From assembly GCA_045613125.1 (NCBI GenBank), contig JAZLAM010000022.1:7227-71226 (forward strand): a stretch of DNA of 64,000 nt. Reading direction: 5' to 3'. The translations under genes were made by a program, and so were the position numbers. The DNA is from Alphaproteobacteria bacterium (GTDB lineage: Bacteria; Pseudomonadota; Alphaproteobacteria; RF32; CAG-239). This document shows, piece by piece, positions 16,462-43,084 of this stretch. The number at the start of each line of letters is the position of its first letter. Positions within the stretch are counted from its first letter, which is position 1. The notes under the pieces are model-generated. The model was not told the DNA's origin and ran no database searches. It saw nothing but the letters and a program-made list of their open reading frames with translations.

Positions 16462-16489
16462 AAAAGAGGGGAAACCCCTCTTTTTTTTA
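16462..16489. terminator. Bidirectional terminator downstream of the giant pilin-like gene
   Basis: agaggggaaacccctct flanked by an A-run and a T-run. Confidence 0.6.
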
Positions 16490-20080: not shown

Positions 20081-20090
20081 ATTTTTTCTC

Positions 20091-27641: not shown

Positions 27642-28100
27642 CTACAGCTTCAGATGCTTCAAAAAGGCATCGCAGCCTTCAACAATATCCCAATATGTCT
27701 CGTCAAAATTTCCAGTATACCAAGGATCTTTGATATTGCGAGGCTTGTTTGCAAAATCTAGCAAGCGATGAATTTTATTATCCGTATCAATACCAACGAT
27801 AGATTGTATATCTTCAATGTTGCTGTCATCCATCGCTAAAATATAGTCATAGTAAGCATAATCTTTTGGACGAATACGACGAGAATAATGTTCTTCAAAA
27901 GGCACATGCATAGATTTCAACATCTCACGCGTGCCATGATGAATGCCGGCATGACACATTTCATTATAGCTCTCTGTGGCGGCAGAATCAATTTCAAACT
28001 GATCAGACAAACCGCGTTCCTCAACCATTTGTTTAAAAACAAACTGCGCCATCGGCGACCGACATATATTTCCTAAACATACAAATAAAACTTTAATCAT
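27642..28100 (-). CDS. Low-molecular-weight protein tyrosine phosphatase (copy A)
   Basis: P-loop VCLGNICRSP (CX5R) at the N-terminus and a DPWYTG (DPYY-like) loop. ~90% aa identity to copy B at 45327-45791. Confidence 0.8.
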   Translation of the reverse strand: MIKVLFVCLGNICRSPMAQFVFKQMVEERGLSDQFEIDSAATESYNEMCHAGIHHGTREMLKSMHVPFEEHYSRRIRPKDYAYYDYILAMDDSNIEDIQSIVGIDTDNKIHRLLDFANKPRNIKDPWYTGNFDETYWDIVEGCDAFLKHLKL

Positions 28101-28116
28101 TGTTATTTTTTAACTC

Positions 28117-28800
28117 CTAAATACTTAGTAATTTTAACTCAAAATTTTGTTTTACTTGCTTCCAATTAGGCATTTTGATTGATAGTAGGTTATAAAAATC
28201 TTCTGTATGTCTATCATAATAAATATGGCATAACTCATGATAAATGACATAATCAATTGATTTTTTGCTAGCCTTTATTAATTCGGGATTCAAAACAATT
28301 TCGTGTTTTTTCAAATAGCTTCCCCAACGTTTATTAAGTTTTCTTATTTTTAATACTGGTTTTTCTACATCTGGAAAAGCCTTAATGCATTCGTTAAGAC
28401 GCTCATTGAAAATAATTTCTGCTCGTTTCACAAGCCACTCTTGAAATGCTTTATTTATTTCATCAATCTTTTGAGGTGCAGATGATAAAACATAAATTTT
28501 ATTATTAGATAGCTTTACAACATTTTTAAGAGCCGCTTTTTCAATTATAACCTGATATTGACGTCCAAGGTAAAGAGCAGAACTTCCTGATTCATAAATT
28601 TTATTTTCAGGAGCATTAAATTGCTTAAAATATGATAATTGCTTATCAATCCATAATGTTTTTCTTTTGATAAAATTATCAATTTCAAAATCTTTTGCTT
28701 GAATTGGAGCTTTTATAATTATTCGAAAATCAGGATAAACCTCCGCAGATAAAGATTTCCTGTCTTCTTTAATTATTCTAAAGTCATAATTTTCAAACAT
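28117..28800 (-). CDS. YgjP-like (DUF45/WLM) zinc metallopeptidase associated with type I restriction-modification
   Basis: HELCH (HExxH) motif near the C-terminus. Its start abuts the hsdR stop, as is typical of YgjP partners of HsdR. Confidence 0.6.
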   Translation of the reverse strand: MFENYDFRIIKEDRKSLSAEVYPDFRIIIKAPIQAKDFEIDNFIKRKTLWIDKQLSYFKQFNAPENKIYESGSSALYLGRQYQVIIEKAALKNVVKLSNNKIYVLSSAPQKIDEINKAFQEWLVKRAEIIFNERLNECIKAFPDVEKPVLKIRKLNKRWGSYLKKHEIVLNPELIKASKKSIDYVIYHELCHIYYDRHTEDFYNLLSIKMPNWKQVKQNFELKLLSI

Positions 28801-31800
28801 TAGAGCATATCCTTATTTTGAACAGCCAAATTCCATGCAGTTTGTGCAATTTGCTCAACAACTGATGCAGATAAATCTTCTTCAACCTCATCAAACAAAT
28901 AATCTTCAATAGCAAAAAGAATGTCTCTTTTTACACTTGTGTTATTTTGAAAATCTACAACTTTTTTCGATTTGATAATATCAACTATGTGTTCAACAAT
29001 TTCACCATATCCATCGCCTGTGGATTTGAAAAAGTCTTTAATATTGCGATAAAATGGGTGATAAATCTTTACAGCTCTAATTTTTTCAGGAATATCACTA
29101 TCAACATAATCCGTAACATTTTTTTGATAATCTTTAGCTTGGTTAAGCAAAGCTTCTAAATCTTCTTTTTTTGCATTTTTCAAATCTTTAAGCAATTTAT
29201 CAATTAACTCGCTAAATTTACCATAAAAAGCCTCATCTTGATGATATTTTTCTTGAATAACCTTTTTGGTTTGAGCGAGTATTGCATCAGCTTTTGACTT
29301 ATCTGATAAGCCATTTTTTTGATCTTCAATATATTGGTTAAATTCATACATATTAGATAAACTGATTTCTTTTGAAAGCACCTCAACATCTTTTGCGGTA
29401 ACATATTTATCCAACAATTTCAAAATCTGGTCTTTATATTTCGAAAAATCAACTTTTTCAGCCATAGCTAACTGTGTTGTTTTTTTAATTTCAATAAATC
29501 TTTTCAAGTCTTTTTTATATGTCAGTAGGTCTTCTGTATTTATTTTCTCATGAAAATCATACAACGAATAACAAACCGAAAATTGCTTTATAAATTTATT
29601 TACATCATCATAAAAAGCTTCTCTTTCTTTTTCATGATCCTTCAAAAACTCAATATAAGCATTGGTGTTGTTAACATCTTTGATATTTCTAAACACATCA
29701 TGCAGACGTTCAAAAATACTCTTCAACACAAAAATCTGGCTATCAGCATCTAACAATGCATTTTCAATATCTTCAGGCGCATAGTTAGAAAACAACTCTA
29801 AAGCATTTTTAAGGTTTTTAGCATTTTTAGAGTAGTCAACAATCAAACCGGCTGTTTTACTTTGTTTACCTGCATCACCATCAAATACACGATTAACCCT
29901 TGCAATTGCTTGTAATAAGTTATGGTCTTTTAATTGCTTTGCCAAATATAATGCAGTATCACGAGGAGCATCAAAACCAGTCAATAATTTATCAACTACA
30001 ATGATGAGTTCACAACCTTCAGGATTTTTCTTATAATCTTGAATTATTTGCTTTTCTCTTGTTTCCAAAGAACCATATTTATGTTTTTGCTCTGCTAAAT
30101 ATTCGGTAATTGCTTTTTTATGTGTAGCATTTACATCATCTTTCCCTTCATCAGCTAATGTATCAGAAATAACAACTTCAGAATTAATACATCCAAGCAT
30201 ATCCAAAGAATTTTTAAACATAACAGCAGCATATTTACTCGGAGCAACAAGCTGACCTTTTAATCCTGTATCCTTAAAGTTTTTCATAAAATGATCATTA
30301 ACATCTAAAGCTATCATTTCAATACGTTGAGATGTTTCTTCCAAAACAGAGTTTGATATACATTTTTTAGCAAAGTCCTTACGTTCACTCTCCGAAAATT
30401 TTGAAGCAAGTCTTTCATAAAATTTATCAGCAATCGCATCAATTTTCTGGTCAACAAAGCGTCCTTGATAAATAAGAGGCAATACAGCACCGTCTTTTTC
30501 TGCTTCTGATATTGTATATTCATCAATTAAGCCACCAAATTTTTGAATAGATTCAGACTTTGAAGCAACTTTGCCTTTCAAACGTTCGGGAACTTTTTTC
30601 ATTAAAGGTGTTCCGGTAAAGGCAATCTGACAAGATCTAGGCAACATTTTGTTCATCATTGCATTAGCATCACCACCTTGTGTTCTGTGTGCTTCATCAA
30701 TCAAAACAAAAATGTTATTATCATTATCAACAAAATCTGTCGGTTTATCAAACTTATGAACTAATGTTGTAATAACATCTAATGTTTTAGATTTAATTTT
30801 TTTAACCAAATCTGCGCATGATGTTGCTTGTTGAACACCTTTTTTGATATTGCAAGCTGCAAATGTATCTCTAATCTGAATATCAAGGTCTGTTCTGTCT
30901 GTTACAACAATAACTCTTGGATTGTTAACGGTTTCAATTAAGTTTTTAACCAACATAACCATAGTTAAAGACTTTCCGCTACCTTGTGTATGCCAGATAA
31001 GTCCACCATGACGTTTACCATTTTCATGTTGATTTTGAATTTTTGCTATTGTCTTTTTAATAGCAAAATATTGCTGATAGCGCGTAACTTTCTTAATTCC
31101 ATTATCATAAATGATAAAGTTTCTAACCAAATCAAGCAAACGTGTAGGCTCTAACAGACTATAAATTCCTCTATCTTGAGCTGACGGAGTTTCTTTTTCA
31201 CATTGATTATAAGAATATCTTGATAAATCTGATGCAATTTTCTTAACAACAGCTGTATCAACTGGTTTATTTATACTTTCTAACACTTTTTGCTCATAAG
31301 TGTCTGTTGCATTTTTTTCTTTCCAAACTGAATAAAACTCAAATGGAGTGAGCATTGTTCCATATTTTATTTCATTAACATTGGTTGCAATCAATATTTG
31401 TGGGAACAAAAAGAACTTTGGTGTTTGCGTATATTTTTGGTTTCTTATCATCTGATGAATAGCCTCATCAACCAAAACAGATGCTTTTTTGCACTCAATA
31501 ACTGCAAACGGAATACCATTTACAAACAAAACAATGTCCGGTCTGCGATTTTGATCTTCTTCAATTTCAAATTCAGCCACCACATGAAACATATTTTTTT
31601 CTGGCTCATCCCAATTTATAAACCTTAATTGTGGAGATGTTTTTTTGCCATCAATAATTTCAGGAACAGATACACCACTAAGCAAATTAGAAAAAATAAT
31701 TTCCGAAGCTTTGACCACACCATCATCAAGTTTTATTTTCTCTAATCCAAAAATAGCCTCATCAATACTTTTATCTGATATCTCAGATGGATTTATTTCT

Positions 31801-32006
31801 CGCAAGGCTTTGATTGCAATATCACGCAAAATATATTGGCTTTTGCTATCACGATAATTATCAACCTCATGTCTTGGAATATAGGTATACCCCAAGTTAA
31901 TAAGCTGCAAAATCGCAGGAATTTGCGAACTATTAGCTTCATCAAAATCAGGAAGAATGTGGTGTGTAGTCATAGTATTACTCCGAAAATTCCTTATTTT
32001 TTTCAC
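28800..32006 (-). CDS. hsdR: Type I restriction enzyme R subunit
   Basis: N-terminal nuclease region, then SF2 helicase motifs (TQGSGKSLTM, LIDEAHRTQ). 1068 aa. Confidence 0.9.
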   Translation of the reverse strand: MKKIRNFRSNTMTTHHILPDFDEANSSQIPAILQLINLGYTYIPRHEVDNYRDSKSQYILRDIAIKALREINPSEISDKSIDEAIFGLEKIKLDDGVVKASEIIFSNLLSGVSVPEIIDGKKTSPQLRFINWDEPEKNMFHVVAEFEIEEDQNRRPDIVLFVNGIPFAVIECKKASVLVDEAIHQMIRNQKYTQTPKFFLFPQILIATNVNEIKYGTMLTPFEFYSVWKEKNATDTYEQKVLESINKPVDTAVVKKIASDLSRYSYNQCEKETPSAQDRGIYSLLEPTRLLDLVRNFIIYDNGIKKVTRYQQYFAIKKTIAKIQNQHENGKRHGGLIWHTQGSGKSLTMVMLVKNLIETVNNPRVIVVTDRTDLDIQIRDTFAACNIKKGVQQATSCADLVKKIKSKTLDVITTLVHKFDKPTDFVDNDNNIFVLIDEAHRTQGGDANAMMNKMLPRSCQIAFTGTPLMKKVPERLKGKVASKSESIQKFGGLIDEYTISEAEKDGAVLPLIYQGRFVDQKIDAIADKFYERLASKFSESERKDFAKKCISNSVLEETSQRIEMIALDVNDHFMKNFKDTGLKGQLVAPSKYAAVMFKNSLDMLGCINSEVVISDTLADEGKDDVNATHKKAITEYLAEQKHKYGSLETREKQIIQDYKKNPEGCELIIVVDKLLTGFDAPRDTALYLAKQLKDHNLLQAIARVNRVFDGDAGKQSKTAGLIVDYSKNAKNLKNALELFSNYAPEDIENALLDADSQIFVLKSIFERLHDVFRNIKDVNNTNAYIEFLKDHEKEREAFYDDVNKFIKQFSVCYSLYDFHEKINTEDLLTYKKDLKRFIEIKKTTQLAMAEKVDFSKYKDQILKLLDKYVTAKDVEVLSKEISLSNMYEFNQYIEDQKNGLSDKSKADAILAQTKKVIQEKYHQDEAFYGKFSELIDKLLKDLKNAKKEDLEALLNQAKDYQKNVTDYVDSDIPEKIRAVKIYHPFYRNIKDFFKSTGDGYGEIVEHIVDIIKSKKVVDFQNNTSVKRDILFAIEDYLFDEVEEDLSASVVEQIAQTAWNLAVQNKDML

Positions 32007-32241
32007 CTTTTGTTATTTCTATTTGATTAATAGCCTCTTTATTAAGCTCATTTTGATAATCATTATCTAATGCTTTTGACATCTCATTCATTAAAATTTC
32101 ACCACCAATATGAAGTCCCAAATGTGCCAACCTATCTGCATTATTGTTATGTTCTGTAAATTTTTTCGCAGATGCTATCCTCATAAACCAAGAAACACCT
32201 GTTAAAAAACCTTTCAAAAATCTATTTGCATTTTTATCCAT
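31978..32241 (-). CDS. Hypothetical protein (87 aa) between hsdS and hsdR
   Basis: Overlaps the hsdR start and the upstream gene's stop. No motif recognised. Confidence 0.35.
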   Translation of the reverse strand: MDKNANRFLKGFLTGVSWFMRIASAKKFTEHNNNADRLAHLGLHIGGEILMNEMSKALDNDYQNELNKEAINQIEITKGEKNKEFSE

Positions 32242-32968
32242 TTTTGTTTCTCCTTAGATTATTTTCATTTGACTGAATATTTTTTAAATCTTTATTTGGT
32301 TGGTGTGCTTTATCATCCACAGTTTCAAGTTTAACTGTATTATCTTGAGATATGTAAACTGTTCTATTACTATATGACTGTATTGCAAAAATTATTATAG
32401 TTACAAATATTCCAAGTATAACCAACCAATTTGTTATTTCGAAACGACTTTTAGCTAATAAAGCTTCTCGCTCTTTCTCACAGCATTCAAAAGATTTCTT
32501 ACCTTTCTTCTCATATGAATAGAAAAATGGACAACTTTTTGTAGATAATGTTTTTAAATCTTCAATCTCATTAAAATGTTCCCATTGCTCATGCCAACAT
32601 TCTAAATAATCATCATCGGGAGCATCTGGATGTGGCAACATACCAAACACAGAAGAAAGAGAGTACTTGTTAATAGACATACTATCTTGTGCTAATAACT
32701 CTAAAACCCGAGGTCCTCCACCTAATTGCTGATGATACATCCCTTTTTTCATATTGTCTAACATTTGCTCATATTGTGCTTCCCATACCTTTTGTATTCG
32801 AATTTCTTTTCCTATAAATTCAAAATTACCAGTAAATGCTTGTTTTCTTTCTTCATTAGTTAAAATTATGGTAATATCATCATTTGTAGACTTTAATGCT
32901 AACATATCATAGCTTGTTTTATCAATACAACGCATACAAAAAGCACAATTTAAACAACATTTTTTCAT
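32234..32968 (-). CDS. Cys-rich single-pass membrane protein (244 aa) nested in the restriction-modification operon
   Basis: N-terminal CCLNCAFCMRC cluster, a second SCPFF...ECCEKE cluster, and a C-terminal TM helix (WLVILGIFVTIIIFAI). Confidence 0.4.
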   Translation of the reverse strand: MKKCCLNCAFCMRCIDKTSYDMLALKSTNDDITIILTNEERKQAFTGNFEFIGKEIRIQKVWEAQYEQMLDNMKKGMYHQQLGGGPRVLELLAQDSMSINKYSLSSVFGMLPHPDAPDDDYLECWHEQWEHFNEIEDLKTLSTKSCPFFYSYEKKGKKSFECCEKEREALLAKSRFEITNWLVILGIFVTIIIFAIQSYSNRTVYISQDNTVKLETVDDKAHQPNKDLKNIQSNENNLRRNKNG

Positions 32969-32969
32969 A

Positions 32970-34208
32970 TTAGTTCACTTTCACGCGGGTTTGGCCGGTT
33001 AAGAGTTGTTGCATTAGGCCTTTCTTTTGCTCTTTTAAGGCGTCTAATTTTTTGTTCAAAAGGTTAATCTCATCATCTGTTGTTGATAAAACATCAGCAA
33101 TAGCCTTTTGTTCGGCAATATCAGAAGGAATAAATACCTTAACTAGCTGAAAATCTTCAGACGAAACAGCCATTCGCTCATATACAGTGCCTTCTTCATA
33201 CCTACGAGCTTTTGAAATAAAATTATCAGTTGTTAATAAATATCCAAAAAATAACGAATTACCATTAATTATTTCATAAGTTACATAAATTGGAGAAAAA
33301 ATCCCTTCTCCATAAGTATTTAAACAAATAACACCAAATTTGAGATTCGCAGGATTATAACATATGTCATGTGACTTGGTTATTTTATACTCTTTATCAA
33401 TCTGCTTAACTAAAAAATCACGATTGTATCTATCTGATTTTGGAACAACTCCTTCTTTTGTTAATGAAACGTGTTCTAATTCAGCTCCTTTAGTCAAATA
33501 TGTTTTTCGTTCTTTTAAAAATTCTTTACATTTGACTTCTTTCCAAGGTTGGGTGAAGCCTTTGAGGCGAGTTTTACCGGTGAGGAGTTTTTGCATCAGA
33601 CCTTTTTTAAGGAGTTTCTTTTGCTCTATCAAAGATGATAACTTTTCAATCGCCTCATCCCAAGTCCCCAATATCCCCGCAATCTTCTCCTGTTCAGGCA
33701 AGGGTGGAAGAAGCAAAAATATTTTTGATAAATCTTCTTGACCGATATTAGAACGAATTGCTCCTTGGCACCTACGTATAGCTTCCTTTCTAAAATAACC
33801 TGATTTAAAACAATATACACTAAACTTTGGAGAAAGAATATTAGATTTAGGTCGACCTCTGATAATAAAACCACCAAAAGTGATTTTTGAAGTATCAAGA
33901 TAAACAGAAGAGCATGCTATTTCTTCAGGAATTTCTGAGGTTCTATTAAATAAGACATCTCCATATATAACACTATTTTCATTAAGTTTACGTTCATTTA
34001 CATTAACAGAACCTATAATATTTTTTTCATATAAATATGTGTTATTAAATATGTCCATAGTATTAACAAATTTAATACCTGAACCATAGGACTCTTTTTC
34101 AGCATTTAGTCCATTCTTAAATATCATAAAATCACCAAGTTTCTTAACACTCCAGCCCTCAGGTATTTTTTGATTATTCTGCATCAATGCTATCCTTTTC
34201 TTCACCAT
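32970..34208 (-). CDS. hsdS: Type I restriction-modification specificity subunit (two target-recognition domains)
   Basis: Conserved central (LPPLPEQEKIAGIL) and C-terminal (AEQKAIADVL...LKEQKKGLMQQLLTG) HsdS repeats flanking two variable domains. Confidence 0.85.
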   Translation of the reverse strand: MVKKRIALMQNNQKIPEGWSVKKLGDFMIFKNGLNAEKESYGSGIKFVNTMDIFNNTYLYEKNIIGSVNVNERKLNENSVIYGDVLFNRTSEIPEEIACSSVYLDTSKITFGGFIIRGRPKSNILSPKFSVYCFKSGYFRKEAIRRCQGAIRSNIGQEDLSKIFLLLPPLPEQEKIAGILGTWDEAIEKLSSLIEQKKLLKKGLMQKLLTGKTRLKGFTQPWKEVKCKEFLKERKTYLTKGAELEHVSLTKEGVVPKSDRYNRDFLVKQIDKEYKITKSHDICYNPANLKFGVICLNTYGEGIFSPIYVTYEIINGNSLFFGYLLTTDNFISKARRYEEGTVYERMAVSSEDFQLVKVFIPSDIAEQKAIADVLSTTDDEINLLNKKLDALKEQKKGLMQQLLTGQTRVKVN

Positions 34209-34653
34209 TTATTACAAATTTATAAGATGGAGCATCTTTTTCTAACAATACCCAGACACCTAATAAATACTTATATTCACCTGTTGGATTAGTTAAATCT
34301 TTCAATTTTTGAATATCCTTTTCATCGTCATTATTCCACCATCCTTTAAATTCAATAGCTATTTTATTTTCATCATTACTCCACATTTTATGTAAAATAA
34401 TATCAGGACGAACCCCTTTGGGAAAATTAGGAGTTGATTTAACAGAATCACAATTTTTATTATATTCTGAATTTAGATCCAAATCTTTATATTGTGATGA
34501 TTGGACTTTTTGAAAAAGATGGGTGTAAATCAGAGCAACAACACATTGTTCTAATCCCTGAATTTGAATAACTTTTGAAAAATTAGCATAAACAGCATCA
34601 ACTGAGCGTTGAAGCATATTAAATAGTTGTTTCCGTTCTTTTAACTTACTCAT
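34174..34653 (-). CDS. Hypothetical protein with a possible PD-(D/E)xK nuclease signature (159 aa)
   Basis: RPDIILH ... IAIEFK resembles the D...ExK core. The call rests on this weak motif alone. Confidence 0.3.
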   Translation of the reverse strand: MSKLKERKQLFNMLQRSVDAVYANFSKVIQIQGLEQCVVALIYTHLFQKVQSSQYKDLDLNSEYNKNCDSVKSTPNFPKGVRPDIILHKMWSNDENKIAIEFKGWWNNDDEKDIQKLKDLTNPTGEYKYLLGVWVLLEKDAPSYKFVINGEEKDSIDAE

Positions 34654-34663
34654 ATATCACCTC

Positions 34664-35143
34664 TCAGGTATTTTTTGATTGTGCTTCAACTATAACATCA
34701 TTTTTATTTAACACTTTGTCAGAATAAGAGTTTTTATATAAATTCATATACTTGTCTGCAAAATCAAAAGTGTAATCTAATTGAAAAACTATAATTAATA
34801 GTGCAATATGTGCTGACGATAGGTATAAAGTATCTTTGTAATTATAACTAAAAGAAAAAGCATTTAAAAAAAATAAAAACAATAAAGAAAACAATGATGT
34901 TTTTAAGAATTTTTTATTGTCATATATAAATTTTTCAAACATATTATGTTTTTTCATATAAAGATTTATTTCTTGGTTAGCATAAGCAGCTAAAAGAAAT
35001 GATTGAGAAAAAGCAAAAATAATTGATATACAAGTAATTGCATCTGAAAGCAGGCCATTATTCAAAGTGAACAATAGACTTATATTTAGAAGTAAAAATA
35101 AAATCCATGTCCTACATTTTACTAAAGATTTCTTCAATTTCAT
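34664..35143 (-). CDS. Small 4-TM membrane protein
   Basis: Start assigned to MKLKKSL. Four hydrophobic helices. Overlaps the end of the upstream 251-aa gene. Confidence 0.4.
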   Translation of the reverse strand: MKLKKSLVKCRTWILFLLLNISLLFTLNNGLLSDAITCISIIFAFSQSFLLAAYANQEINLYMKKHNMFEKFIYDNKKFLKTSLFSLLFLFFLNAFSFSYNYKDTLYLSSAHIALLIIVFQLDYTFDFADKYMNLYKNSYSDKVLNKNDVIVEAQSKNT

Positions 35144-35867
35144 AATATCCTTCTTCCTTTTCAAATTCAAAAATTTCTTTTGCAACAACACTTTCCTCAT
35201 TAATGGATATGAAACCATCAGAACTTTCTCCTTTGATGTTAAAGGATTTTATATATGATGGTGCTTTAAGTTTATTATATAATTTTATTAAATAACTTTC
35301 TTTAAGAGCTCTTTTGAAATCCATTTTAACTATTGTTGTTTCTGGTCGTTCTTTTGCATCTAAATCATCTCCCCAATCTGGATTTAAAAAATCATGAATA
35401 AATAAATCATTTGTTGCTGTAATAGAAATAGATTCTATAGATTTAACTTGCTTAACAAAATCATCAATAGATGTAGAAACCGCTAATAATTTACAAGAGA
35501 AATCATTATCAGCTCCATGTAATAAATTTAATATTATATTTCTTTTATCATGGTCGGAACATAGTACTCGGTCTTGATAAATAACAAATATAAATTGATT
35601 AGTCATATGAATAATTTCTTCAGATAATATGCTATCATCATAATTTTTCTGATTTTTATTATAGCATCTATTAGGTTTTAACTTACCATAGGACACTAAA
35701 AAAACAATTTTGTCTTTATCTGCCATATGACGGATTGTATATGTTATACTTCTTAATGGAAATTCAATAATTTCTTTATTGCTGAATAAATCCTTTGAAA
35801 TTCGTTTTCCTGCACCTAAAAGGTCAACACATTCAGGAATATAATTAAACATACGTACTATACTCAT
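35112..35867 (-). CDS. Hypothetical cytoplasmic protein (251 aa) paired with the membrane protein
   Basis: ORF separated by 4 bp from the upstream fic. No motif recognised. Confidence 0.4.
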   Translation of the reverse strand: MSIVRMFNYIPECVDLLGAGKRISKDLFSNKEIIEFPLRSITYTIRHMADKDKIVFLVSYGKLKPNRCYNKNQKNYDDSILSEEIIHMTNQFIFVIYQDRVLCSDHDKRNIILNLLHGADNDFSCKLLAVSTSIDDFVKQVKSIESISITATNDLFIHDFLNPDWGDDLDAKERPETTIVKMDFKRALKESYLIKLYNKLKAPSYIKSFNIKGESSDGFISINEESVVAKEIFEFEKEEGYYEIEEIFSKM

Positions 35868-35870
35868 TGC

Positions 35871-36917
35871 TTAATACTCCTCCACAATTTCCCAATGACC
35901 GCCTTTGTCTGGACCGATACGACGGAGCTGATTATTGTTTTTCAAATTGGTTATTTGTTTAGCTATTGCACGTCTTGATATTCCAAGAGTTTCAGCCATC
36001 TCGGTTGTTGTGATTTTTGGATTTTGTGCAATTAACTCTAAAATTTTCTGTGAACTTTTCTGTGAACTTTTCTGTGAACTTTTTTCTTCTGTGGTACTCA
36101 CATCTTTAATCTGCATTTCGCGATTGTCCAAGAGATTAGTTTCATCTAAAAGCAAGTTTCCAAAGAACTTGTTTAAGAATTCCATTGTATAAGGAATGTC
36201 TTTTTTAAGGTTTTGATAGTTAGCACGAACAAGCGCATTACGGAAATATTTAGCATATTTTTCAAATATGTCGTTATTAGTTTCAAAACCTAAAGTATAA
36301 AGATATTTAATCACAAAAACCGCGGTGGTTCTGGTGTTACCTTCGCCAAAAGGATGTATCTGCCAAACTCCTGATATAAACTTTGCTAAATGCTCAACCT
36401 TTTGTTTGTTTGAAAGCCCTTGATAATTAAATTTCTTCTCTTGAGCAAAATCATAATCCAAAGTTTCTTGAATACTGTCCGAACGGCCATAAATAACCGT
36501 ATCACCATTTAAGATAGGTTCTTTTTTGGTAATATCATAAGTGCGAATTTTACCGGTAATTTCATCTTTTAAGATACCTGTAAATAAAGCCTTGTGAATA
36601 GAAAGGAGTTCAACAGGGCTAAATGAAAAAGTGTGTGTACTCAATAGTTTTGTGATACGAGCAGAAACCTCGTCAGCTTCTTTTTCATTGTGTTCTTGCA
36701 CAGTTTTTGCCGGATTTTGCTTATAATAACGAGCAATTTCTTCATTGGCCTCATCAATGGAAATTTTGCCTTCAATATTATCTTTAGCAACATCTATCAG
36801 ATATTTTGAAGGAGTTAACCCGTCAACTTGTTGCAAACCGATAGCAACACGCCAATTTTCTGCCTTTTTATATTTTTCAGGCTCATTTTGCTTTTTATAT
36901 TCTTCAAAATGCTCCAT
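35871..36917 (-). CDS. Fic/Doc family protein with a C-terminal winged-HTH, embedded in the type I restriction-modification operon
   Basis: Variant Fic motif HPFGEGNTRTT (HPFx[DE]GN[GT]R). SSQKSSQKSSQK linker. C-terminal HTH (TTEMAETLGISRRAIAKQI). Confidence 0.7.
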   Translation of the reverse strand: MEHFEEYKKQNEPEKYKKAENWRVAIGLQQVDGLTPSKYLIDVAKDNIEGKISIDEANEEIARYYKQNPAKTVQEHNEKEADEVSARITKLLSTHTFSFSPVELLSIHKALFTGILKDEITGKIRTYDITKKEPILNGDTVIYGRSDSIQETLDYDFAQEKKFNYQGLSNKQKVEHLAKFISGVWQIHPFGEGNTRTTAVFVIKYLYTLGFETNNDIFEKYAKYFRNALVRANYQNLKKDIPYTMEFLNKFFGNLLLDETNLLDNREMQIKDVSTTEEKSSQKSSQKSSQKILELIAQNPKITTTEMAETLGISRRAIAKQITNLKNNNQLRRIGPDKGGHWEIVEEY

Positions 36918-36920
36918 CTA

Positions 36921-38423
36921 TTACACTCCTAATTCTTTGAGGTATTCATTCATCTTGGCTTGAACATCTTGAAGCTCTTTTTCAAGTGAAGCGATATCAG
37001 ACTTAACTTTTGCTAAATCAACTTCTTCTTCCTCTTCAAAAGTATCTACATAGCGAGGGATGTTGAGGTTAAAGTCGTTTTCGCTAATTTCATCAAAGGT
37101 TGCGATATGCGAATATTTTTCAATTTCTTTGCGATTTTTATATGTATCAACGATTTTATTGATATGCTCATCTGAAAGAGTGTTTTGGTTTTTACCAGGA
37201 ACAAACTCTTTGCTTGCATCAATAAACAAAACATCTTTTTTGTTTTCATTGACCCCGCCTTGTTCACGAGATCTATCAAAAACAAGCATTGCGACAGGAA
37301 TACCGGTTGTTTGGAATAAGCTATTAGGCAAGCCAATTACAGCATCAAGAATATTTTCTCTAATTAATGCTTCTCTAATTCTTCCTTCTGATGAACCACG
37401 GAATAATACACCATGTGGAACAATAACTGCTACACGACCGGATCTTGGTTTTGCTGTTGCAATCATATGTGAGATAAATGCATAATCTCCTTTACTTGCT
37501 GGAGGCATACCTCTATCAAAACGATTGTAAATATCATTTTCTAAATGTTTTTCACCCCATTTATCTAATGAAAATGGCGGGTTTGCAACGATTACATCAA
37601 ATTGCATTAAATGGTCATTTTCCTTCAACAATGGGTTGTTTAAGGTGTCACCCCATTCAATGCGAGCAGAATCTTGTCCATGCAAAAACATATTCATACG
37701 AGCAAGGTTATAGGTTGCACCGGTTTTTTCTTGTCCATATAAAGCATAATCTTTTGAACCTTGAGAAGAAACTTCTTCACCGGCTAACAATAACAGGCCA
37801 CCTGAACCACAAGCTGGGTCACAAATTCTATCACCTGGTTTAGGCATAGCTAATTTTGCTAACAAAGCAGACAGAACTTTTGGTGTATAAAATTCTCCCG
37901 CTTTCTTGCCTGCATCTGAACCAAAACGTTCTATCAGATACATATAAGCATTACCAAGCAAATCACCCTCAACATCAGACAAATCAACCTGACTAAAATC
38001 ATTAATAAGATCTCTAATCATTTTATTTCGTTGACTAGTTTGGCCTAAAATAGCTTCATTGTTAAAATCGACGGTAAAAATCCCTTTTAAATGAGCCTCG
38101 TTAGCATCTTCAATTTTGCGAAGTGCTTTATTTATTAGCTCACCAACATTGTCTGCATTTTGTTGTTCGTAGATATCATAAAAACTAGCACCTTCAGGCA
38201 ACACAAAACGAGCATTTTTAAGACGAAGTTCAATACGTTCTTTATCATTTCCATAGCGTTCTTGAAGTTTTTTTACTTCAGCTTGCTTAATATCGCTCAT
38301 ATATTTATAAAACAAAAAGGCTAAAATATAGTCTTTGAACATACCGCCATCGACCACACCGCGCGCAGAATCTGCTGCACTCCATAATAGGTTATTTAAT
38401 TTGTCTTGCGTAATTTTAGCCAT
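36921..38423 (-). CDS. hsdM: Type I restriction-modification N6-adenine methyltransferase subunit
   Basis: HsdM N-terminal domain, an AdoMet-binding motif, and NPPF (VIVANPPFS). Confidence 0.9.
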   Translation of the reverse strand: MAKITQDKLNNLLWSAADSARGVVDGGMFKDYILAFLFYKYMSDIKQAEVKKLQERYGNDKERIELRLKNARFVLPEGASFYDIYEQQNADNVGELINKALRKIEDANEAHLKGIFTVDFNNEAILGQTSQRNKMIRDLINDFSQVDLSDVEGDLLGNAYMYLIERFGSDAGKKAGEFYTPKVLSALLAKLAMPKPGDRICDPACGSGGLLLLAGEEVSSQGSKDYALYGQEKTGATYNLARMNMFLHGQDSARIEWGDTLNNPLLKENDHLMQFDVIVANPPFSLDKWGEKHLENDIYNRFDRGMPPASKGDYAFISHMIATAKPRSGRVAVIVPHGVLFRGSSEGRIREALIRENILDAVIGLPNSLFQTTGIPVAMLVFDRSREQGGVNENKKDVLFIDASKEFVPGKNQNTLSDEHINKIVDTYKNRKEIEKYSHIATFDEISENDFNLNIPRYVDTFEEEEEVDLAKVKSDIASLEKELQDVQAKMNEYLKELGV

Positions 38424-38426
38424 TTT

Positions 38427-39002
38427 TTACTCCTTAATAGTCTGACTTAATATTGAGTTTATTAGTTTTTTTCTTGATTGCTTTATTTTTTCAAATATAT
38501 CCACCTCTTTTTCATAAAGAGAAAATAATTCAACAAGTTGCTTTTGTTTTTCTAGATGTAGAAGGGGGATGTCTATTTGCTTTAATTCATTAATAGTTAT
38601 CGTGCTTACGCGTTCAGTATTTTGGCGCAAGTTTAATTGTGATTTGCAGATAGGGGAATTCAGGTATAGGGCAACATATTCAGGATAATATTTTTCGTTA
38701 ATTAACTTAATACGATAAAAAGCACTTGATGCTATTGTTTGTATGTTATTTTTCCAAATAGCAGCTTTAAAATCTCCCTTATTTGTAAACAAAATTTCGT
38801 TTTGGTAAAGGAAATATTTTTCTTTAGCATTGACAATATCTGCTTTTTCTAAGTTACGGATATTGATATGGGTGAAATTTTCAACATCTCTGGGCTGAAC
38901 TACCGGAACAGTGGAGATTACACATTCTTTTTTTTCAAGAGAAATTAATTCTCTTCTAAAATTATGTCCTATTTTTACTTCAGCTATATCAGATAATCTC
39001 AT
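38427..39002 (-). CDS. hsdS: Half-size HsdS (single target-recognition domain)
   Basis: One variable domain plus the conserved C-terminal repeat (IDIPLLHLEKQKQLVELF). Sits 4 bp upstream of hsdM. Confidence 0.65.
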   Translation of the reverse strand: MRLSDIAEVKIGHNFRRELISLEKKECVISTVPVVQPRDVENFTHINIRNLEKADIVNAKEKYFLYQNEILFTNKGDFKAAIWKNNIQTIASSAFYRIKLINEKYYPEYVALYLNSPICKSQLNLRQNTERVSTITINELKQIDIPLLHLEKQKQLVELFSLYEKEVDIFEKIKQSRKKLINSILSQTIKE

Positions 39003-39265: not shown

Positions 39266-39562
39266 ATGGCTATAAATTATAAAATTGTAAATGATATACT
39301 TAATTATATCGGAAATGAAAATAAATCAGATTGGTATATAGGAATAGCAACATATCCACGTAATAGGTTATTTGGAGATCACAATGTGAATGAACTTAGT
39401 GGTCGATGGATTTATAATACTAATCCAATGAGTGAAAATGACGCAAGAGAAACAGAGGCTTACCTATTAAAAATGTATCCTTTTAAGGGAAATACTGGTG
39501 GTGGAGACCATCCTCAGTATGTTTATGCTTATAAAATAACTTCATATACTAGAGAATCATAA
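39266..39562 (+). CDS. Hypothetical protein (98 aa), weak GIY-YIG-like half motif
   Basis: WYIGIATYPRNRLFGDH resembles the YIG...R...H part of GIY-YIG domains. The first GIY element is not evident. Confidence 0.3.
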   Translation: MAINYKIVNDILNYIGNENKSDWYIGIATYPRNRLFGDHNVNELSGRWIYNTNPMSENDARETEAYLLKMYPFKGNTGGGDHPQYVYAYKITSYTRES

Positions 39563-39600
39563 AAATGGGCGGATATTCCGCCCTTATTTTTCCAAAGTGA
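39563..39600 (+). terminator. Rho-independent terminator
   Basis: gggcggatattccgccc hairpin followed by a T-run. Confidence 0.55.
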
Positions 39601-40009: not shown

Positions 40010-40801
40010 TTACAAATACTCGCCGGTTTTGTGGGTGTGGCAGAGGGCAAAGTGCCAGCCGTCTAGTTTCTTACCGCTTCTTTCACACCAACCGTTGGCT
40101 TCATAATAACTATAAAAGCCTTCCAGATTGATATAGATGTTCTTTTCGGCCACATACCGTTCCACTTCCTGCCAGTTAGGTGGCAGTTGTGTGAAGTGAT
40201 ACTTAAACTTCGCGCCCACTCCTAATCCTTGCCGAGCCAAAACATCACCAAGCCCAACCAAACCACTACCGGTTCGTTTTTGCTCAAAAATCGCCGGCTC
40301 AGCTAATTTCTTTTCATTATTTACATTATTACCTTGTTTTCTTTCTTCAGTCGTTGGCGGATAGTCGGCGATTAAACGGCTTTCATCCGGCGGACAAGTG
40401 GCGGTGGTGTTCGGCGTTATATCCTCAAAGCCCTGATATTTATTATAGTTAATGAGCCTGACAAGTGTGGCACATCCGATACGTGTTGTTGTAATATCGT
40501 TGGTGCGTTTGAGTTTATTAAGTAGTCGCCTGATTTGGTCCTTGGATTTATCCAGAGTTTCAGCCAATCGCATGTGGCTGATGACAACTTCGCCCCGATG
40601 AACAATAATATCCTTAAAGGGCTTATCTTTGAAATTTGCCGTCAGCATCAGGTGGAGATATAGTTGCAAAACATTTGCATCTGAATACCAATGCCAATCT
40701 TGAAAATCGCGGTAGAACTTAATAAATCCGCCTTTGACAACTTCCTTTTTGTGAAAAGACAAAGAGGTATTGTCAGACTTATGGTGTATCATATCTGTCA
40801 T
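40010..40801 (-). CDS. Phage/plasmid replication-like protein (263 aa)
   Basis: Higher-GC gene adjacent to the serine recombinase. N-terminal region FIKFYRDFQDWHWY...GEVVISHMRLAETL and C-terminal Cys/His-containing domain resemble mobile-element replication proteins. The assignment is tentative. Confidence 0.35.
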   Translation of the reverse strand: MTDMIHHKSDNTSLSFHKKEVVKGGFIKFYRDFQDWHWYSDANVLQLYLHLMLTANFKDKPFKDIIVHRGEVVISHMRLAETLDKSKDQIRRLLNKLKRTNDITTTRIGCATLVRLINYNKYQGFEDITPNTTATCPPDESRLIADYPPTTEERKQGNNVNNEKKLAEPAIFEQKRTGSGLVGLGDVLARQGLGVGAKFKYHFTQLPPNWQEVERYVAEKNIYINLEGFYSYYEANGWCERSGKKLDGWHFALCHTHKTGEYL

Positions 40802-40816
40802 GAGAAAACTCCTGTC

Positions 40817-42445
40817 TTAAATTTCCGGGAAGTTATATTTTTTGCGTTGTTCGGCCCAAATTGGTGGAATTTCCTCGCGTATCAGACGTTTTAAGATAAA
40901 GTCTGCCGGTTGAGTGCCTGCCAGAATGGATTTGATAATATCCGGTGCCAACGAAGTTAAACGAAGAATACGTCCCAAATAACCGGCATCCAGTTCTTCA
41001 TGTAACGATAGTTCGGCAATAGTCATTCGACCGGAGGTTAATATCTTTTGATATTTAAACGCTTTGGAAAGGGCTTTGATAAGCTCTTTATTCGGGCAAG
41101 AGTTTTGCGTTAACGCTTCCGGAACTGTCACCTGTAATACACCATGCGTTCTGGAAAGAGGGACATCTATTGTCATGATGTCGTCTTTGGTTTGAGCGGC
41201 GTATTTATCAGGTAAAATATCCAGCGCCAAAGCAGTCCATTTGATTTCCAAATTATCACATTGAACCGTAATGTTTTCGATTAACTCTTTGACTAAAAGC
41301 GATTTATCAAGCTCACTCATCTTTGCCAAGACCTTTTCTGGATGTTGCATAATCTTAAACAGCTCTTTGGTTTTATCCGGTGCAATTTGCTTGATAAGTC
41401 CGTTTAGGATATGGGCATCTTTTAGCATTGGCGTGATGATTTGTATAATCGCTTCATCAAGGATAGCCACCGCTACCGAGCCATTATGACAAGTATGATA
41501 GCCGTAGTATTTGGCTTTGGTCGAGGTATAATAATAACGCCTGCGACCATGTCCCATGCTGACCGTTGGTGTCATTCGGGTATGGCAGCAACCACAAGTT
41601 AAAATACCACGCAAAATGCCGACTTCGTTTTTCTTGTATAAGCAAGAGCGTTTGGCTACATCTTTGGAGGCTCTGATTTCGGCAACCTTATCAAATGTTT
41701 CTTGATCGATAATGGCCGGATGTTGTCCATCATATAGTTCATTTTTGTGTTTGACTTTGCCAAGGTAAACCGGATTTTTGAGTAATCGTTTTATCATCTC
41801 TCGGCGGTATTCTATACCGTATTTATCTTTGACTAACTTACAGACGGCGGTAATGGATTTATGCTTTAGATAACTTTCAAACATAAAGCGTATCATTTCG
41901 CCTTCTTCCGGTTTAATTTTGAGCTTTTTGTTGATAGCAACATAACCGGTCGGAACAGCACCGCCCATCCACATGCCTTTCTTTTTAGACGCGGCTACTT
42001 TATCACGAATACGTTCACCGCTGACTTCCCGTTCAAATTGAGCAAATGAAAGTAAGATATTGAGCATCAAACGGCCCATACTGTCGGCGGTATTAAAATT
42101 TTGGGTTACCGATACGAAAGAGCAGTTGTTCTTTTCCAATATCTCAATCATTTTGGAAAAGTCGGTTAATGACCTGGTTAACCGGTCTATTTTATAAACG
42201 ACAATCATGTCAACTTTGCCGGCATTGATGTCTTCTAACAGGCGCTCTAAGGCGGGTCTATTCATATTACCGCCGGAAAAGCCTCCATCATCATAATGTT
42301 CAGGAATGATTTTCCAACCTTGATGTTTCTGACTTAATACATAATTTTCACCGGCTTCACGCTGAGCTTCTAATGTATTAAACTCTTTATCCAACCCTTC
42401 ATCGGTTGATTTTCGGGTATAAATGGCACAACGAACTTCTTTCAT
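40817..42445 (-). CDS. Large serine recombinase
   Basis: N-terminal resolvase domain (CAIYTRKSTDEG with catalytic Ser). A recombinase domain and a zinc ribbon (CGCCHTRM...C). 542 aa. GC clearly above that of neighbouring genes. Confidence 0.85.
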   Translation of the reverse strand: MKEVRCAIYTRKSTDEGLDKEFNTLEAQREAGENYVLSQKHQGWKIIPEHYDDGGFSGGNMNRPALERLLEDINAGKVDMIVVYKIDRLTRSLTDFSKMIEILEKNNCSFVSVTQNFNTADSMGRLMLNILLSFAQFEREVSGERIRDKVAASKKKGMWMGGAVPTGYVAINKKLKIKPEEGEMIRFMFESYLKHKSITAVCKLVKDKYGIEYRREMIKRLLKNPVYLGKVKHKNELYDGQHPAIIDQETFDKVAEIRASKDVAKRSCLYKKNEVGILRGILTCGCCHTRMTPTVSMGHGRRRYYYTSTKAKYYGYHTCHNGSVAVAILDEAIIQIITPMLKDAHILNGLIKQIAPDKTKELFKIMQHPEKVLAKMSELDKSLLVKELIENITVQCDNLEIKWTALALDILPDKYAAQTKDDIMTIDVPLSRTHGVLQVTVPEALTQNSCPNKELIKALSKAFKYQKILTSGRMTIAELSLHEELDAGYLGRILRLTSLAPDIIKSILAGTQPADFILKRLIREEIPPIWAEQRKKYNFPEI

Positions 42446-42447
42446 GG

Positions 42448-42849
42448 CTATACTCCAAAAAATTCTTTGCCGGAGATTTTCCGACCGGTTATTTCCAAAG
42501 CGATAGCCGATAGAGATTTATAAACCTGGCCATCAAACTCAAAACCATCTTTCAACACACGCAGACGATAAACATTACCCTTGAACCGTTTGATAAGCTC
42601 TGTGCCAACGGGCAAATAAGTTGCATTATCGGGTTCATCATCCATTGTTTCAAGTAGGTGTTTGGTTGCACTGTCTAATCCGCCAAAGCGCAGTTCTTGC
42701 AATCTGTTTGTAACACGCCAGATAAAAAAGGACTTACGGGTGGCCTTCGTTGGAAGAGAGAAAAGCTCAATATAGAGTTTGTATAACTCATCAAAGTCTA
42801 ATTGAGGTATGTCTTCCAAAGGAATGTCTAAATTAATATTTTTGACCAT
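42448..42849 (-). CDS. DUF2924-like protein partnered with the serine recombinase
   Basis: Start assigned to MVKNINLD. Translationally coupled (3-bp gap) to the recombinase, as seen in integrative elements. Confidence 0.5.
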   Translation of the reverse strand: MVKNINLDIPLEDIPQLDFDELYKLYIELFSLPTKATRKSFFIWRVTNRLQELRFGGLDSATKHLLETMDDEPDNATYLPVGTELIKRFKGNVYRLRVLKDGFEFDGQVYKSLSAIALEITGRKISGKEFFGV

Positions 42850-43084
42850 CGTTAACTCCTTTTGTTTGACAATGAATGCTTGCTTTTGAAACAATATCAA
42901 GTGATTTTTCGGGATTTTTCGATAAATCTTTGGGCTCTGTTTCGTTTAAGATTTCAGCCACAGCTGTTTTTAACAGTTCTATGATTTCATTCATGGTTTT
43001 ATCCTTTCAGAAAGTTCCTACATACAGAACAAGTGAAAAAATCGAAAAATCGTTCTCACTTTTTTCAATTTTTTTTGTTTGTCT

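What the first reader, a model, noticed from the sequence alone, without database searches (positions are those of the whole stretch)
28117..39002. Type I restriction-modification operon interrupted by at least six non-restriction-modification genes: a candidate nest for uncharacterised defence modules
The minus-strand operon reads hsdS(half)-hsdM-fic/HTH-[251 aa]-[4TM, ~160 aa]-[159 aa, PD-(D/E)xK-like]-hsdS-[244 aa Cys-rich membrane]-[87 aa]-hsdR-ygjP. Only the hsd genes, Fic and YgjP are recognisable. The other five ORFs are tightly packed, with overlapping or 4-bp junctions. They are very AT-rich and carry no motif I can assign. Type I restriction-modification loci are known hotspots where accessory anti-phage cassettes embed. 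The cytoplasmic protein, small polytopic membrane protein and putative nuclease trio has the architecture of an abortive-infection effector module, but I cannot match it to a named family.
Basis: partly seen in the sequence, partly recalled or inferred. Interest (0 to 1): 0.72.

Follow-up and report, generated by a model that had tools for sequence, protein, structure and literature searches.

The report
Rex-like abortive-infection pair inside restriction operon
A restriction-modification operon in a gut alphaproteobacterium has two gaps where unrelated genes are swapped in and out between strains; one conserved two-gene insert looks, by predicted structure and layout, like the phage lambda RexA/RexB "suicide on infection" system, though in a sequence family that no database yet recognises.

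Summary
Eleven same-strand genes run with gaps of at most 10 nt or overlaps: half-hsdS, hsdM, Fic-wHTH, 251 aa, 159-aa 4-TM, 159 aa, hsdS, 244 aa, 87 aa, hsdR, ygjP.

Related operons in other gut Alphaproteobacteria MAGs show two hypervariable cargo slots, hsdM→hsdS and hsdS→hsdR. Their boundaries sit at the hsd start and stop codons.

- **Fic-wHTH.** It matches PADLOC candidate PDC-S72.
- **159-aa protein.**
- **244-aa Cys-rich protein.** It is a rare cargo always found just upstream of hsdR; function unknown.
- **87-aa ORF.** It is an orphan with no homologue.

dN/dS of 0.07-0.30 argues against pseudogenes. Embedding of defence genes in Type I loci is already known. The Rex-like family and its hsd association are new.

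The parts
38427..39002 (-). Half-size hsdS (191 aa, one target-recognition domain); first gene of the operon
   Evidence: Pfam Methylase_S E 4.8e-7 and PADLOC Specificity_I E 1.8e-15. Present in all loci of this hsd lineage. Only 47% identical to L010 although the flanking hsdM is 97% identical.
36921..38423 (-). hsdM, Type I N6-adenine methyltransferase (500 aa)
   Evidence: Pfam N6_Mtase E 1.6e-103 and HsdM_N E 8.8e-24; PADLOC MTase_I E 2e-130. dN/dS 0.08-0.10.
35871..36917 (-). Fic domain + C-terminal winged-helix protein (348 aa). Slot 1 cargo; equals PADLOC phage-defence candidate PDC-S72.
   Evidence: PADLOC PDC-S72 E 7.9e-121; Pfam Fic E 5.8e-11 and HTH_24 E 7.3e-8. Present in L010, L011 and L029 but replaced by a Bro-N protein in L026.
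35112..35867 (-). U251: cytoplasmic protein with an RdgC/RexA fold (251 aa); proposed sensor of a RexAB-like pair
34664..35143 (-). TM159: 159-aa basic protein with about four hydrophobic helices; overlaps the U251 3' end by 32 nt; proposed RexB-like membrane effector
   Evidence: Start fixed by alignment to the L002 orthologue and by the gene call in the source assembly. Hydropathy shows four hydrophobic segments, with size and plan like lambda RexB (144 aa). A partner of 155-175 aa follows every U251 relative examined. dN/dS 0.11-0.18.
34174..34653 (-). U159: 159-aa protein with a PD...ExK motif (RPD84, E101-F-K103). An independent single-gene cassette and possible nuclease.
   Evidence: Only weak nuclease-family hits: Pfam AHJR-like E 0.066, PADLOC PD-Lambda-3_A E 0.012, PHROG 945 endonuclease E 0.012. 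Present in L010. Fused to a membrane N-terminal domain in P0079 on L032. dN/dS 0.07-0.16.
34658..34704 (-). Duplicated copy of the hsdS 5' end at the TM159/U159 junction. It is a direct repeat of 34153-34199; the core AATCAAAAAATACCTGAG(G/A)G lies at 34680 and 34175.
   Evidence: the repeat finder family D1: 47 nt, 77% identity, 505-nt spacing. The same duplication occurs in L010. In L011 it flanks a different 247-aa cargo.
32970..34208 (-). Full-length hsdS (412 aa from the first ATG; probably starts at M9, 34184)
   Evidence: PADLOC Specificity_I E 1.9e-86; Pfam Methylase_S, two stretches. Only the conserved 5', central and 3' segments match other loci at DNA level, which indicates swapping of target-recognition domains.
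32234..32968 (-). U244: Cys-rich N-terminal domain (CCxxCxxC plus four further conserved Cys), one C-terminal TM helix and a short tail. Slot 2 cargo.
   Evidence: Only three homologous clusters among 5.8 billion (P0077, P0078, P0080). Each lies directly upstream of hsdR in the same hsd lineage. 86.7% DNA identity to L026 although hsdR is 69.5% identical. dN/dS about 0.30. No profile hit.
31978..32241 (-). U87: orphan 87-aa ORF between U244 and hsdR; status as a gene uncertain
   Evidence: No homologue found. It is a singleton cluster. It is not a frameshifted remnant of the longer tail of U244 homologues. It has AAGGAG 12-14 nt upstream.
28800..32006 (-). hsdR (1068 aa from GTG; probably 1057 aa from ATG 31973)
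   Evidence: NCBIfam TIGR00348 hsdR E 1.5e-140. 97% DNA identity to L010 begins at 31979.
28117..28800 (-). YgjP-like metallopeptidase-fold protein (227 aa); last gene of the operon; conserved after hsdR in this lineage
   Evidence: Pfam YgjP-like E 4.7e-46. Present after hsdR in L011, L026, L029 and L032.

Best explanation
This is a working Type I restriction-modification operon (half-hsdS, hsdM, hsdS, hsdR, ygjP) on an integrative island of a gut alphaproteobacterium. It has two cargo slots, hsdM→hsdS and hsdS→hsdR. Recombination in the conserved hsd flanks swaps accessory cassettes in and out of them.

Slot 1 in this window holds three independent modules:
1. Fic-wHTH, which is PADLOC candidate PDC-S72.
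2. A two-gene RexAB-like module.
3. A small PD-(D/E)xK-like protein.

Slot 2 holds a Cys-rich membrane-anchored protein and an orphan ORF.

For the central pair I propose the lambda Rex logic. The 251-aa RdgC/RexA-fold protein would be a cytoplasmic sensor, probably dimeric, and would probably recognise a phage DNA or DNA-protein intermediate. On infection it would activate the co-translated 4-TM partner. The partner would permeabilise or depolarise the membrane and stop growth before the phage completes its cycle. This would back up restriction when a modified or anti-restriction phage gets through.

Shown here: gene order, cassette boundaries, co-conservation of the pair, purifying selection, predicted fold, and the hydrophobic plan of the partner.

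Inferred: dimerisation, DNA binding, the A-B interaction, membrane damage, and any anti-phage effect.
For: - Cas2, CHL4, IML3 and CENP-L/N follow.
   - Adams et al. report RdgC, Cas2, IML3 and CHL4 among the structural relatives of RexA (PMC11077077).
   - Foldseek against BFVD independently finds phage RdgC-annotated proteins over the full length.
2. **Architecture.**
   - Every relative examined is followed at once by a 155-175-aa protein with about four hydrophobic helices. The junction is a 1-nt gap or an overlap of 4 to about 50 nt.
   - This holds from 89% down to about 20% identity.
   - Lambda RexB is 144 aa with the same plan.
   - The two partner clades share a TM2 motif; hhalign gives E 0.0018.
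3. **Autonomy of the pair.**
   - DNA similarity to L012 and L014 covers exactly the two genes (35858 to 34704/34722), with unrelated flanks.
   - dS for the pair between the window and L011 is 0.68-0.87, against 1.59 for hsdM.
   - Remote pairs lie outside hsd, for example between a Type IIG enzyme (PADLOC E 5.9e-235) and an Mrr-like protein in L033.
4. **Real genes.** dN/dS is 0.08-0.18 for the pair, and both have Shine-Dalgarno-like motifs.
Against: - No sequence-level link to RexA or RexB was found.
  - hhalign of the family profile against lambda RexA gives probability 0.1.
  - The Pfam RexA and RexB models are not hit.
  - hmmsearch of three family profiles against PDB sequences finds nothing relevant.
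  - hhalign of the partner against RexB gives probability below 1.
- The distant member scores slightly higher against RdgC than against RexA. Lambda RexA itself is not among the top 50 BFVD hits. The fold therefore places the protein in the RdgC/RexA superfamily, not specifically with RexA.
- The window protein is acidic (pI 5.4, against 8.6 for lambda RexA), so DNA binding is not evident from charge.
- No relative was found in phage collections, whereas all five described RexAB-like systems are prophage-borne.
- The partner's structure could not be modelled under the tool restrictions.
- Small 4-helix membrane proteins are common.
Confidence: 0.6

Rival explanations
1. The 251-aa protein is an RdgC-like modulator of recombination or of the restriction enzyme, not an infection sensor. 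It could temper RecA/RecBCD processing of DNA cut by HsdR, or take part in restriction alleviation. The membrane partner would merely anchor or sequester it.
Against: The pair sits in hsd operons of two lineages whose HsdM and HsdR are only 23-30% identical. It lies upstream of hsdM in L014. Remote pairs lie outside any hsd operon. A dedicated regulator would be expected to co-evolve with its enzyme. Many operons of the same lineage lack the pair altogether (L026, L029).
Confidence: 0.15
2. The embedded genes are selfish or addiction cargo. Examples would be toxin-like Fic, a membrane toxin with a cytosolic antidote, or a nuclease. They would stabilise the island or hitch-hike on a recombination hotspot, with no role in phage defence.
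For: - The operon lies on an integrative island with a large serine recombinase, between duplicated LMW-PTP genes.
- Cargo is AT-rich and patchily distributed.
- Fic-domain proteins include toxins such as VbhT and Doc. The N-terminus gives a weak VbhA antitoxin-like match.
- A small membrane protein overlapping a cytosolic partner is also a toxin-antitoxin layout.
Against: - The cargo neighbours in related loci are defence-typical: RhuM-Fic, Bro-N, a PIN domain, a weak SngA-like hit, a Type IIG enzyme and an Mrr-like protein.
- The Fic gene matches a family selected as a defence candidate.
- Toxin-antitoxin behaviour and abortive infection are not mutually exclusive.
Confidence: 0.15
3. Some of the ORFs, above all the 87-aa ORF and possibly the tail-truncated 244-aa gene, are not functional genes. 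They would be debris left by cassette exchange.
For: The 87-aa ORF has no homologue in 5.8 billion clusters. The window's 244-aa protein lacks the roughly 50-residue coiled-coil tail of its three homologues, and DNA similarity to L026 ends at 32408. The TM159 C-terminal residues are encoded by an out-of-frame remnant of the hsdS 5' end.
Against: The 244-aa ORF is intact over the conserved domain, with dN/dS about 0.3. The 87-aa ORF has a good Shine-Dalgarno motif and exactly fills the gap to hsdR. This rival does not apply to U251, TM159 or U159, whose dN/dS is 0.07-0.18.
Confidence: 0.35

Closest known systems
Phage lambda RexA/RexB exclusion system and the RexAB-type systems (P. putida RexABpp; Sbash gp30/31; CarolAnn gp44/43; Butters gp30/31)
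   Same: - Two adjacent, same-strand genes.
- It is followed by a basic protein of about 145-175 aa with four TM helices.
- The pair sits among other defence genes.
   Different: - There is no detectable sequence similarity to RexA or RexB, whereas RexApp reached HHpred probability 98.
- The protein is acidic rather than basic.
- The two genes overlap by 32 nt.
- The pair is not in a prophage next to a cI-type repressor. It is embedded in Type I hsd operons or next to other restriction enzymes.
- No relative was found in phage collections.
- No functional data exist.
Genes embedded in Type I R-M operons: PrrC, RloC and the rlo genes of Campylobacter, TgvAB of V. cholerae, and the PADLOC PDC candidates ('guilt-by-embedding', Payne et al. 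2024)
   Same: Non-hsd genes are nested between hsdM, hsdS and hsdR and co-oriented with them. The Fic-wHTH gene here matches PDC-S72. The embedded cargo is expected to complement restriction.
   Different: The other four cargo families match no PADLOC model. Up to three independent cassettes are stacked in one slot. The comparison resolves sharp slot boundaries at hsd start and stop codons, and a duplicated hsdS 5' segment at one insertion point.
RdgC (recombination-associated DNA-binding ring protein)
   Different: From general knowledge, RdgC is a stand-alone housekeeping-type gene without a membrane partner. Here the gene is always coupled to a 4-TM gene and travels as a mobile cassette. 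There is no sequence similarity.
Kiwa (KwaA 4-TM protein + KwaB DUF4868)
   Same: It is a two-gene defence system that combines a small four-TM protein with a soluble partner.

Membership tests
Type I restriction-modification system | hsdM, hsdS and hsdR all present, co-oriented and full length | tested here: met
   N6_Mtase E 1.6e-103. Specificity_I E 1.9e-86, with two Methylase_S stretches. TIGR00348 hsdR E 1.5e-140. All ORFs are uninterrupted.
Type I restriction-modification system | Methylation and restriction activity at a bipartite target | not testable with these tools
   This needs methylome data or restriction assays.
RexAB-type abortive-infection system | Component A has the RexA two-domain fold (split globular domain plus dimerisation domain, RdgC-like) | tested here: met
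RexAB-type abortive-infection system | Component A is detectably homologous in sequence to RexA (Pfam PF15969 or an HHpred-type match) | tested here: not met
   No Pfam RexA hit for the window protein or for 35 family members. hhalign against lambda RexA gives probability 0.1. PDB profile searches are negative. The hhalign test used a single RexA sequence, not a RexA family profile.
RexAB-type abortive-infection system | Component B is an adjacent small inner-membrane protein with four TM helices | tested here: met
   Hydropathy of TM159 and of twelve partners shows four hydrophobic segments in 155-175 aa, as in RexB. No dedicated topology predictor or structure model was available.
RexAB-type abortive-infection system | Component B is homologous to RexB (Pfam PF15968) | tested here: not met
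   No RexB hit at E up to 1. hhalign probability is below 1. The same was true for the accepted P. putida RexBpp.
RexAB-type abortive-infection system | Both genes are needed for phage exclusion; A triggers B-dependent membrane damage; A binds DNA as a dimer | not testable with these tools
   These are experimental criteria (PMC12894663, PMC11077077).
RexAB-type abortive-infection system | Encoded in a prophage immunity region | tested here: not met
   The pair lies inside an hsd operon. No relatives were found in IMG/VR or INPHARED. This is a feature of the known examples rather than a strict requirement.
PADLOC PDC-S72 (the Fic-wHTH candidate) | Full-length match to the PDC-S72 profile | tested here: met
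   E 7.9e-121; protein residues 2-317 against profile positions 4-314 of 377.
PD-(D/E)xK nuclease superfamily (the 159-aa protein) | Conserved D...(D/E)xK catalytic motif within the restriction-endonuclease-like fold | tested here: inconclusive
   The motif RPD84...E101-F-K103 is invariant in three sequences. Only sub-threshold hits to AHJR-like, PD-Lambda-3_A and PHROG 945 were found. No structure model was made. The PDB profile search is negative.

The most novel reading that the evidence does not exclude
The 251-aa/4-TM pair would found a previously unrecognised, sequence-divergent branch of RexAB-like abortive-infection systems that is bacterial rather than prophage-borne. It would move as a two-gene cassette into restriction operons. 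The hsd operon of these gut Alphaproteobacteria would then act as a recombination-driven cassette exchanger: conserved hsd segments, such as the duplicated hsdS 5' end, would serve as the attachment homology. Its other cargo (the Cys-rich membrane protein, the nuclease-like protein, and the 280-430-aa unknowns in sister loci) would be further new defence families.
Probability: 0.35. Interest if true: 0.7.

Novelty: new variant of a known kind. Interest (0 to 1): 0.55.

Why it matters
Rex was the first abortive-infection system discovered, yet only five Rex-like systems have been described, all in prophages, and its trigger is still unknown. A divergent Rex-like family would widen its known distribution if it is chromosomal, travels as a cassette and nests inside restriction operons. 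It would also give a natural setting in which to test how an abortive-infection back-up cooperates with restriction.

The locus is also a clean example of exact cassette replacement at hsd gene boundaries. It yields several short, selection-constrained, database-invisible candidates from a poorly studied clade of gut bacteria. These could be tested directly by cloning.

Tried and rejected
**Searches that gave nothing**
- Pfam, PADLOC, NCBIfam and PHROGs gave no significant hit for U251, TM159, U244 or U87.
- The 35 wider family members share no consistent Pfam, PHROG or PADLOC family.
- Sequence links to RexA and RexB were sought and not found.
- PDB profile searches gave no relevant hit for A1, A2, A3, A5 and A6.
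- megablast of the operon against plasmids found no match.
- Phage collections hold no relative of the family (viral contigs; INPHARED tblastn).

- The afdb50 library was unavailable.
- The second word-indexed homology search, with A2, added only a few short contigs.
- The 4-TM partner could not be modelled with an alignment, because only window sequences and proteins returned by the search for homologous proteins may be submitted. I used the second structure job to replicate the fold on a distant family member instead of modelling U159 or U244. Those two therefore remain without models.

**Ideas rejected**
- U87 as a frameshifted tail of U244: rejected.
- The trio as one module: rejected.

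**Uninformative**
- The promoter scan did not exceed shuffled controls.

Full report
**1. Observation**

Eleven minus-strand ORFs run from 39002 to 28117, separated by 1-10 nt or overlapping by 1-35 nt.

Profile searches confirm the recognisable genes:
- half-size hsdS: Methylase_S E 4.8e-7; PADLOC Specificity_I E 1.8e-15
- hsdM: N6_Mtase E 1.6e-103
- full hsdS: Specificity_I E 1.9e-86
- hsdR: TIGR00348 E 1.5e-140
- a YgjP-like protein: E 4.7e-46
- a Fic + winged-helix protein

The Fic protein is more than 'recognisable'. It matches the PADLOC phage-defence candidate PDC-S72 at E 7.9e-121.

The other five ORFs are here called U251, TM159, U159, U244 and U87. None has a significant hit in Pfam, PADLOC, NCBIfam or PHROGs.

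The maximal 184-aa ORF for the membrane protein is too long. Alignment to orthologues and the gene call in the source assembly place the start at 35143. That gives 159 aa and a 32-nt overlap with U251.

The embedded genes are markedly AT-rich. GC is 22.5-29.5%, against 35.9% for hsdM and 34.1% for the window.

**2. Where it sits**

The operon lies on a roughly 17-kb segment bracketed by two 90%-identical low-molecular-weight phosphotyrosine phosphatase genes (27642-28100 and 45327-45791). That segment also carries:
- a large serine recombinase (40817-42445)
- a DUF2924 protein
- a DnaD-like replication protein
- a second Fic gene

It looks like an integrative island. All close relatives come from uncultured gut and rumen Alphaproteobacteria MAGs.

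**3. The operon has two cargo slots**

Related loci were recovered through U251 and through U244 and U159. Gene content of the loci that share the window's hsd lineage:

| Locus | Gene order |
|---|---|
| window | S½-M-[Fic-wHTH][U251][TM][U159]-S-[U244][U87]-R-YgjP |
| L010 | S½-M-[Fic-wHTH][U251][TM][U159]-S-[317 aa]-R |
| L011 | S½-M-[Fic-wHTH][147 aa, weakly SieB-like][U251][TM][247 aa]-S-[294 aa, HAD-like by motif; not scanned]-R-YgjP |
| L026 | S½-M-[Bro-N][324 aa]-S-[HAD][U244-like]-R-YgjP |
| L029 | S½-M-[Fic-wHTH][RhuM-Fic][431 aa]-S-[U244-like]-R-YgjP |
| L032 | ...[membrane domain fused to U159][bPH_2 protein]-S-[335 aa]-R-YgjP |

A blastn mosaic shows how sharp the slot edges are.
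- Against L010, identity is 93% from 38579 to 34140.
- Within hsdS it persists only in the conserved 5', central and 3' segments, because the target-recognition domains have been swapped.
- It stops at 32951, next to the hsdS stop codon.
- It resumes at 97% at 31979, next to the hsdR start.
- U244 and U87 have therefore been exchanged for an unrelated 317-aa gene between near-identical flanks.

Cassettes are often more similar between loci than their flanks are.
- U244 is 86.7% identical to L026, where hsdR is 69.5%.
- Between the window and L011, U251 has dS 0.68 and TM159 0.87, whereas hsdM has dS 1.59.

The concept itself is published. Payne et al. (bioRxiv 10.1101/2024.01.29.577857) derived 145 PADLOC candidates from genes embedded in BREX, DISARM and Type I systems. 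TgvAB is a tested example (PMC11411939).

**4. The U251/TM159 pair is an autonomous two-gene cassette**

- U251 has only 28 clusters of close relatives (at least 50% identity) among 5.8 billion.
- A full HMM scan of 1.84 billion representatives finds 41 at E below 1e-3. They are 250-280 aa long and share a handful of invariant positions.
- In every locus examined the gene is followed at once by a 155-175-aa protein with about four hydrophobic helices.
- Within the gut Alphaproteobacteria the pair occurs in two hsd lineages whose HsdM and HsdR are only 23-30% identical.
- It usually lies between hsdM and hsdS, but in L014 it lies upstream of hsdM.
- DNA similarity to L012 and L014 covers just the two genes, 35858 to 34704/34722.
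- Remote relatives, about 20% identical to the window protein, keep the partner but lie outside hsd operons (L019, L021-L025).
- In L033 the pair sits between a Type IIG restriction-modification enzyme (PADLOC E 5.9e-235) and an Mrr_cat_2 protein.
- The partner clades share the motif SD-x-(I/V)-T-x-(I/L/V)-S-I-x-x-(A/G)-F in TM2. hhalign between them gives E 0.0018.
- dN/dS is 0.08-0.15 for U251 and 0.11-0.18 for TM159, similar to hsdM at 0.08-0.10.
- Both genes have Shine-Dalgarno-like motifs.

**5. What the pair resembles**

- CHL4, Cas2, CENP-N/L and IML3: further down

Adams et al. list RdgC, Cas2, IML3 and CHL4 among the structural relatives of RexA (PMC11077077).

Foldseek against BFVD gives, over the full length:
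- unnamed gut-virome phage proteins of 277-322 aa, at E down to 4.5e-11
- then phage proteins annotated RdgC or exonuclease, at E 6e-5 to 6e-4

Lambda RexB is 144 aa with four TM helices, the same plan as TM159.

**6. Limits of that resemblance**

- No sequence method links the family to RexA or RexB. My profile-profile test used only a single RexA sequence.
- The 'Rex-like' reading rests on the invariable coupling to the small 4-TM gene and on the defence neighbourhood.
- U251 is acidic (pI 5.4, against 8.6 for RexA).
- No relative was found in phage collections.
- I could not model the partner with an alignment.

I therefore file the pair as 'works like RexAB, probably' (confidence about 0.6). 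I do not file it as a member of the RexA and RexB sequence families.

**7. The other cargo**

*U159*
- It has an invariant RPD...E-F-K motif.
- It gives three sub-threshold hits to nuclease families.
- It is a separate cassette. Most loci with the pair lack it.
- L011 has an unrelated 247-aa gene in its place.
- In L032 the same domain is fused to a membrane-spanning N-terminal domain.

*The duplicated hsdS 5' segment*
- The U159 cassette is flanked by a duplicated piece of the hsdS 5' end. This is a 47-nt repeat at 34658-34704 and 34153-34199, with a 20-nt core that has one mismatch.
- L010 has the same duplication.
- In L011 the duplication flanks the other cargo, whose ORF begins with the hsdS N-terminal residues.
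- This looks like a scar of repeated insertion by recombination at the conserved hsdS 5' segment.

*U244*
- It has a Cys-rich N-terminal domain (CCxxCxxC plus four more conserved Cys) and one TM helix.
- Its three homologous clusters all lie directly upstream of hsdR in this hsd lineage. They carry a longer coiled-coil tail that the window copy lacks.
- dN/dS is about 0.3. No function can be assigned.

*U87*
- It has no homologue and is not a frameshifted U244 tail.
- It may or may not be a gene.

**8. Verdict**

- The 'nest' interpretation is supported by comparative data, but the phenomenon is already known.
- The 'trio' is really a pair plus an independent gene.
- One of the six inserts is a listed PADLOC candidate.
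- The pair is best explained as a RexAB-like abortive-infection module of an undescribed family that travels as a cassette into restriction loci.
- All function remains inferred.

Noticed in passing
window 27642-28100 and 45327-45791: Two 90%-identical low-molecular-weight phosphotyrosine phosphatase genes lie on the same strand (84% DNA identity over 453 nt). They bracket about 17 kb holding the hsd operon, a DnaD-like gene (40010-40801), a large serine recombinase (40817-42445), a DUF2924 gene (42448-42900) and a second Fic gene (44057-45127). This looks like an integrative island that duplicated or replaced its target gene.
   Followed up: partly
window 34658-34704 and 34153-34199; L010 5674 and 6179; L011 11188 and 11918: The 5' end of hsdS is present twice, flanking the cargo gene inserted just upstream of hsdS. 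That cargo is U159 in the window and L010, and an unrelated 247-aa gene in L011. In the window the last residues of the 4-TM protein are encoded by the remnant in another reading frame.
   Followed up: yes
window 38427-39002 and 32970-34208, compared with L010: Between two operons whose hsdM and hsdR are 97-98% identical, both specificity genes are only 45-47% identical. DNA similarity is confined to the conserved hsdS segments. This indicates target-recognition-domain swapping, and hence different methylation specificities in close relatives.
   Followed up: partly
L011 9440-9883: A 147-aa two-TM protein with a weak match to Pfam SieB (superinfection exclusion protein B; E 7e-5, below the cut-off) lies directly upstream of the RexA-like gene. 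In phage lambda, sieB lies close to rexAB.
   Followed up: no
window 16487-20116 and 20091-21026 (minus strand): A 1209-aa ORF overlaps at its start the end of a 311-aa ORF. Neither has a Pfam match, and the 1209-aa protein has no PDB sequence match.
   Followed up: partly
window 39266-39562 (plus strand): A 98-aa ORF with a sub-threshold GIY-YIG match (E 0.01) lies just upstream of the operon on the opposite strand. It is followed by a strong bidirectional terminator-like hairpin at 39567-39583.
   Followed up: no
L004, L013, L014 and L015 (for example L004 9749-10615): The second hsd lineage that carries the Rex-like pair has its own conserved 280-288-aa protein in the hsdS→hsdR slot. Copies are 52-78% identical between loci and match no Pfam or PADLOC family. 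This is another uncharacterised embedded family. L014 also has a PIN_12-domain protein in the hsdM→hsdS slot.
   Followed up: partly
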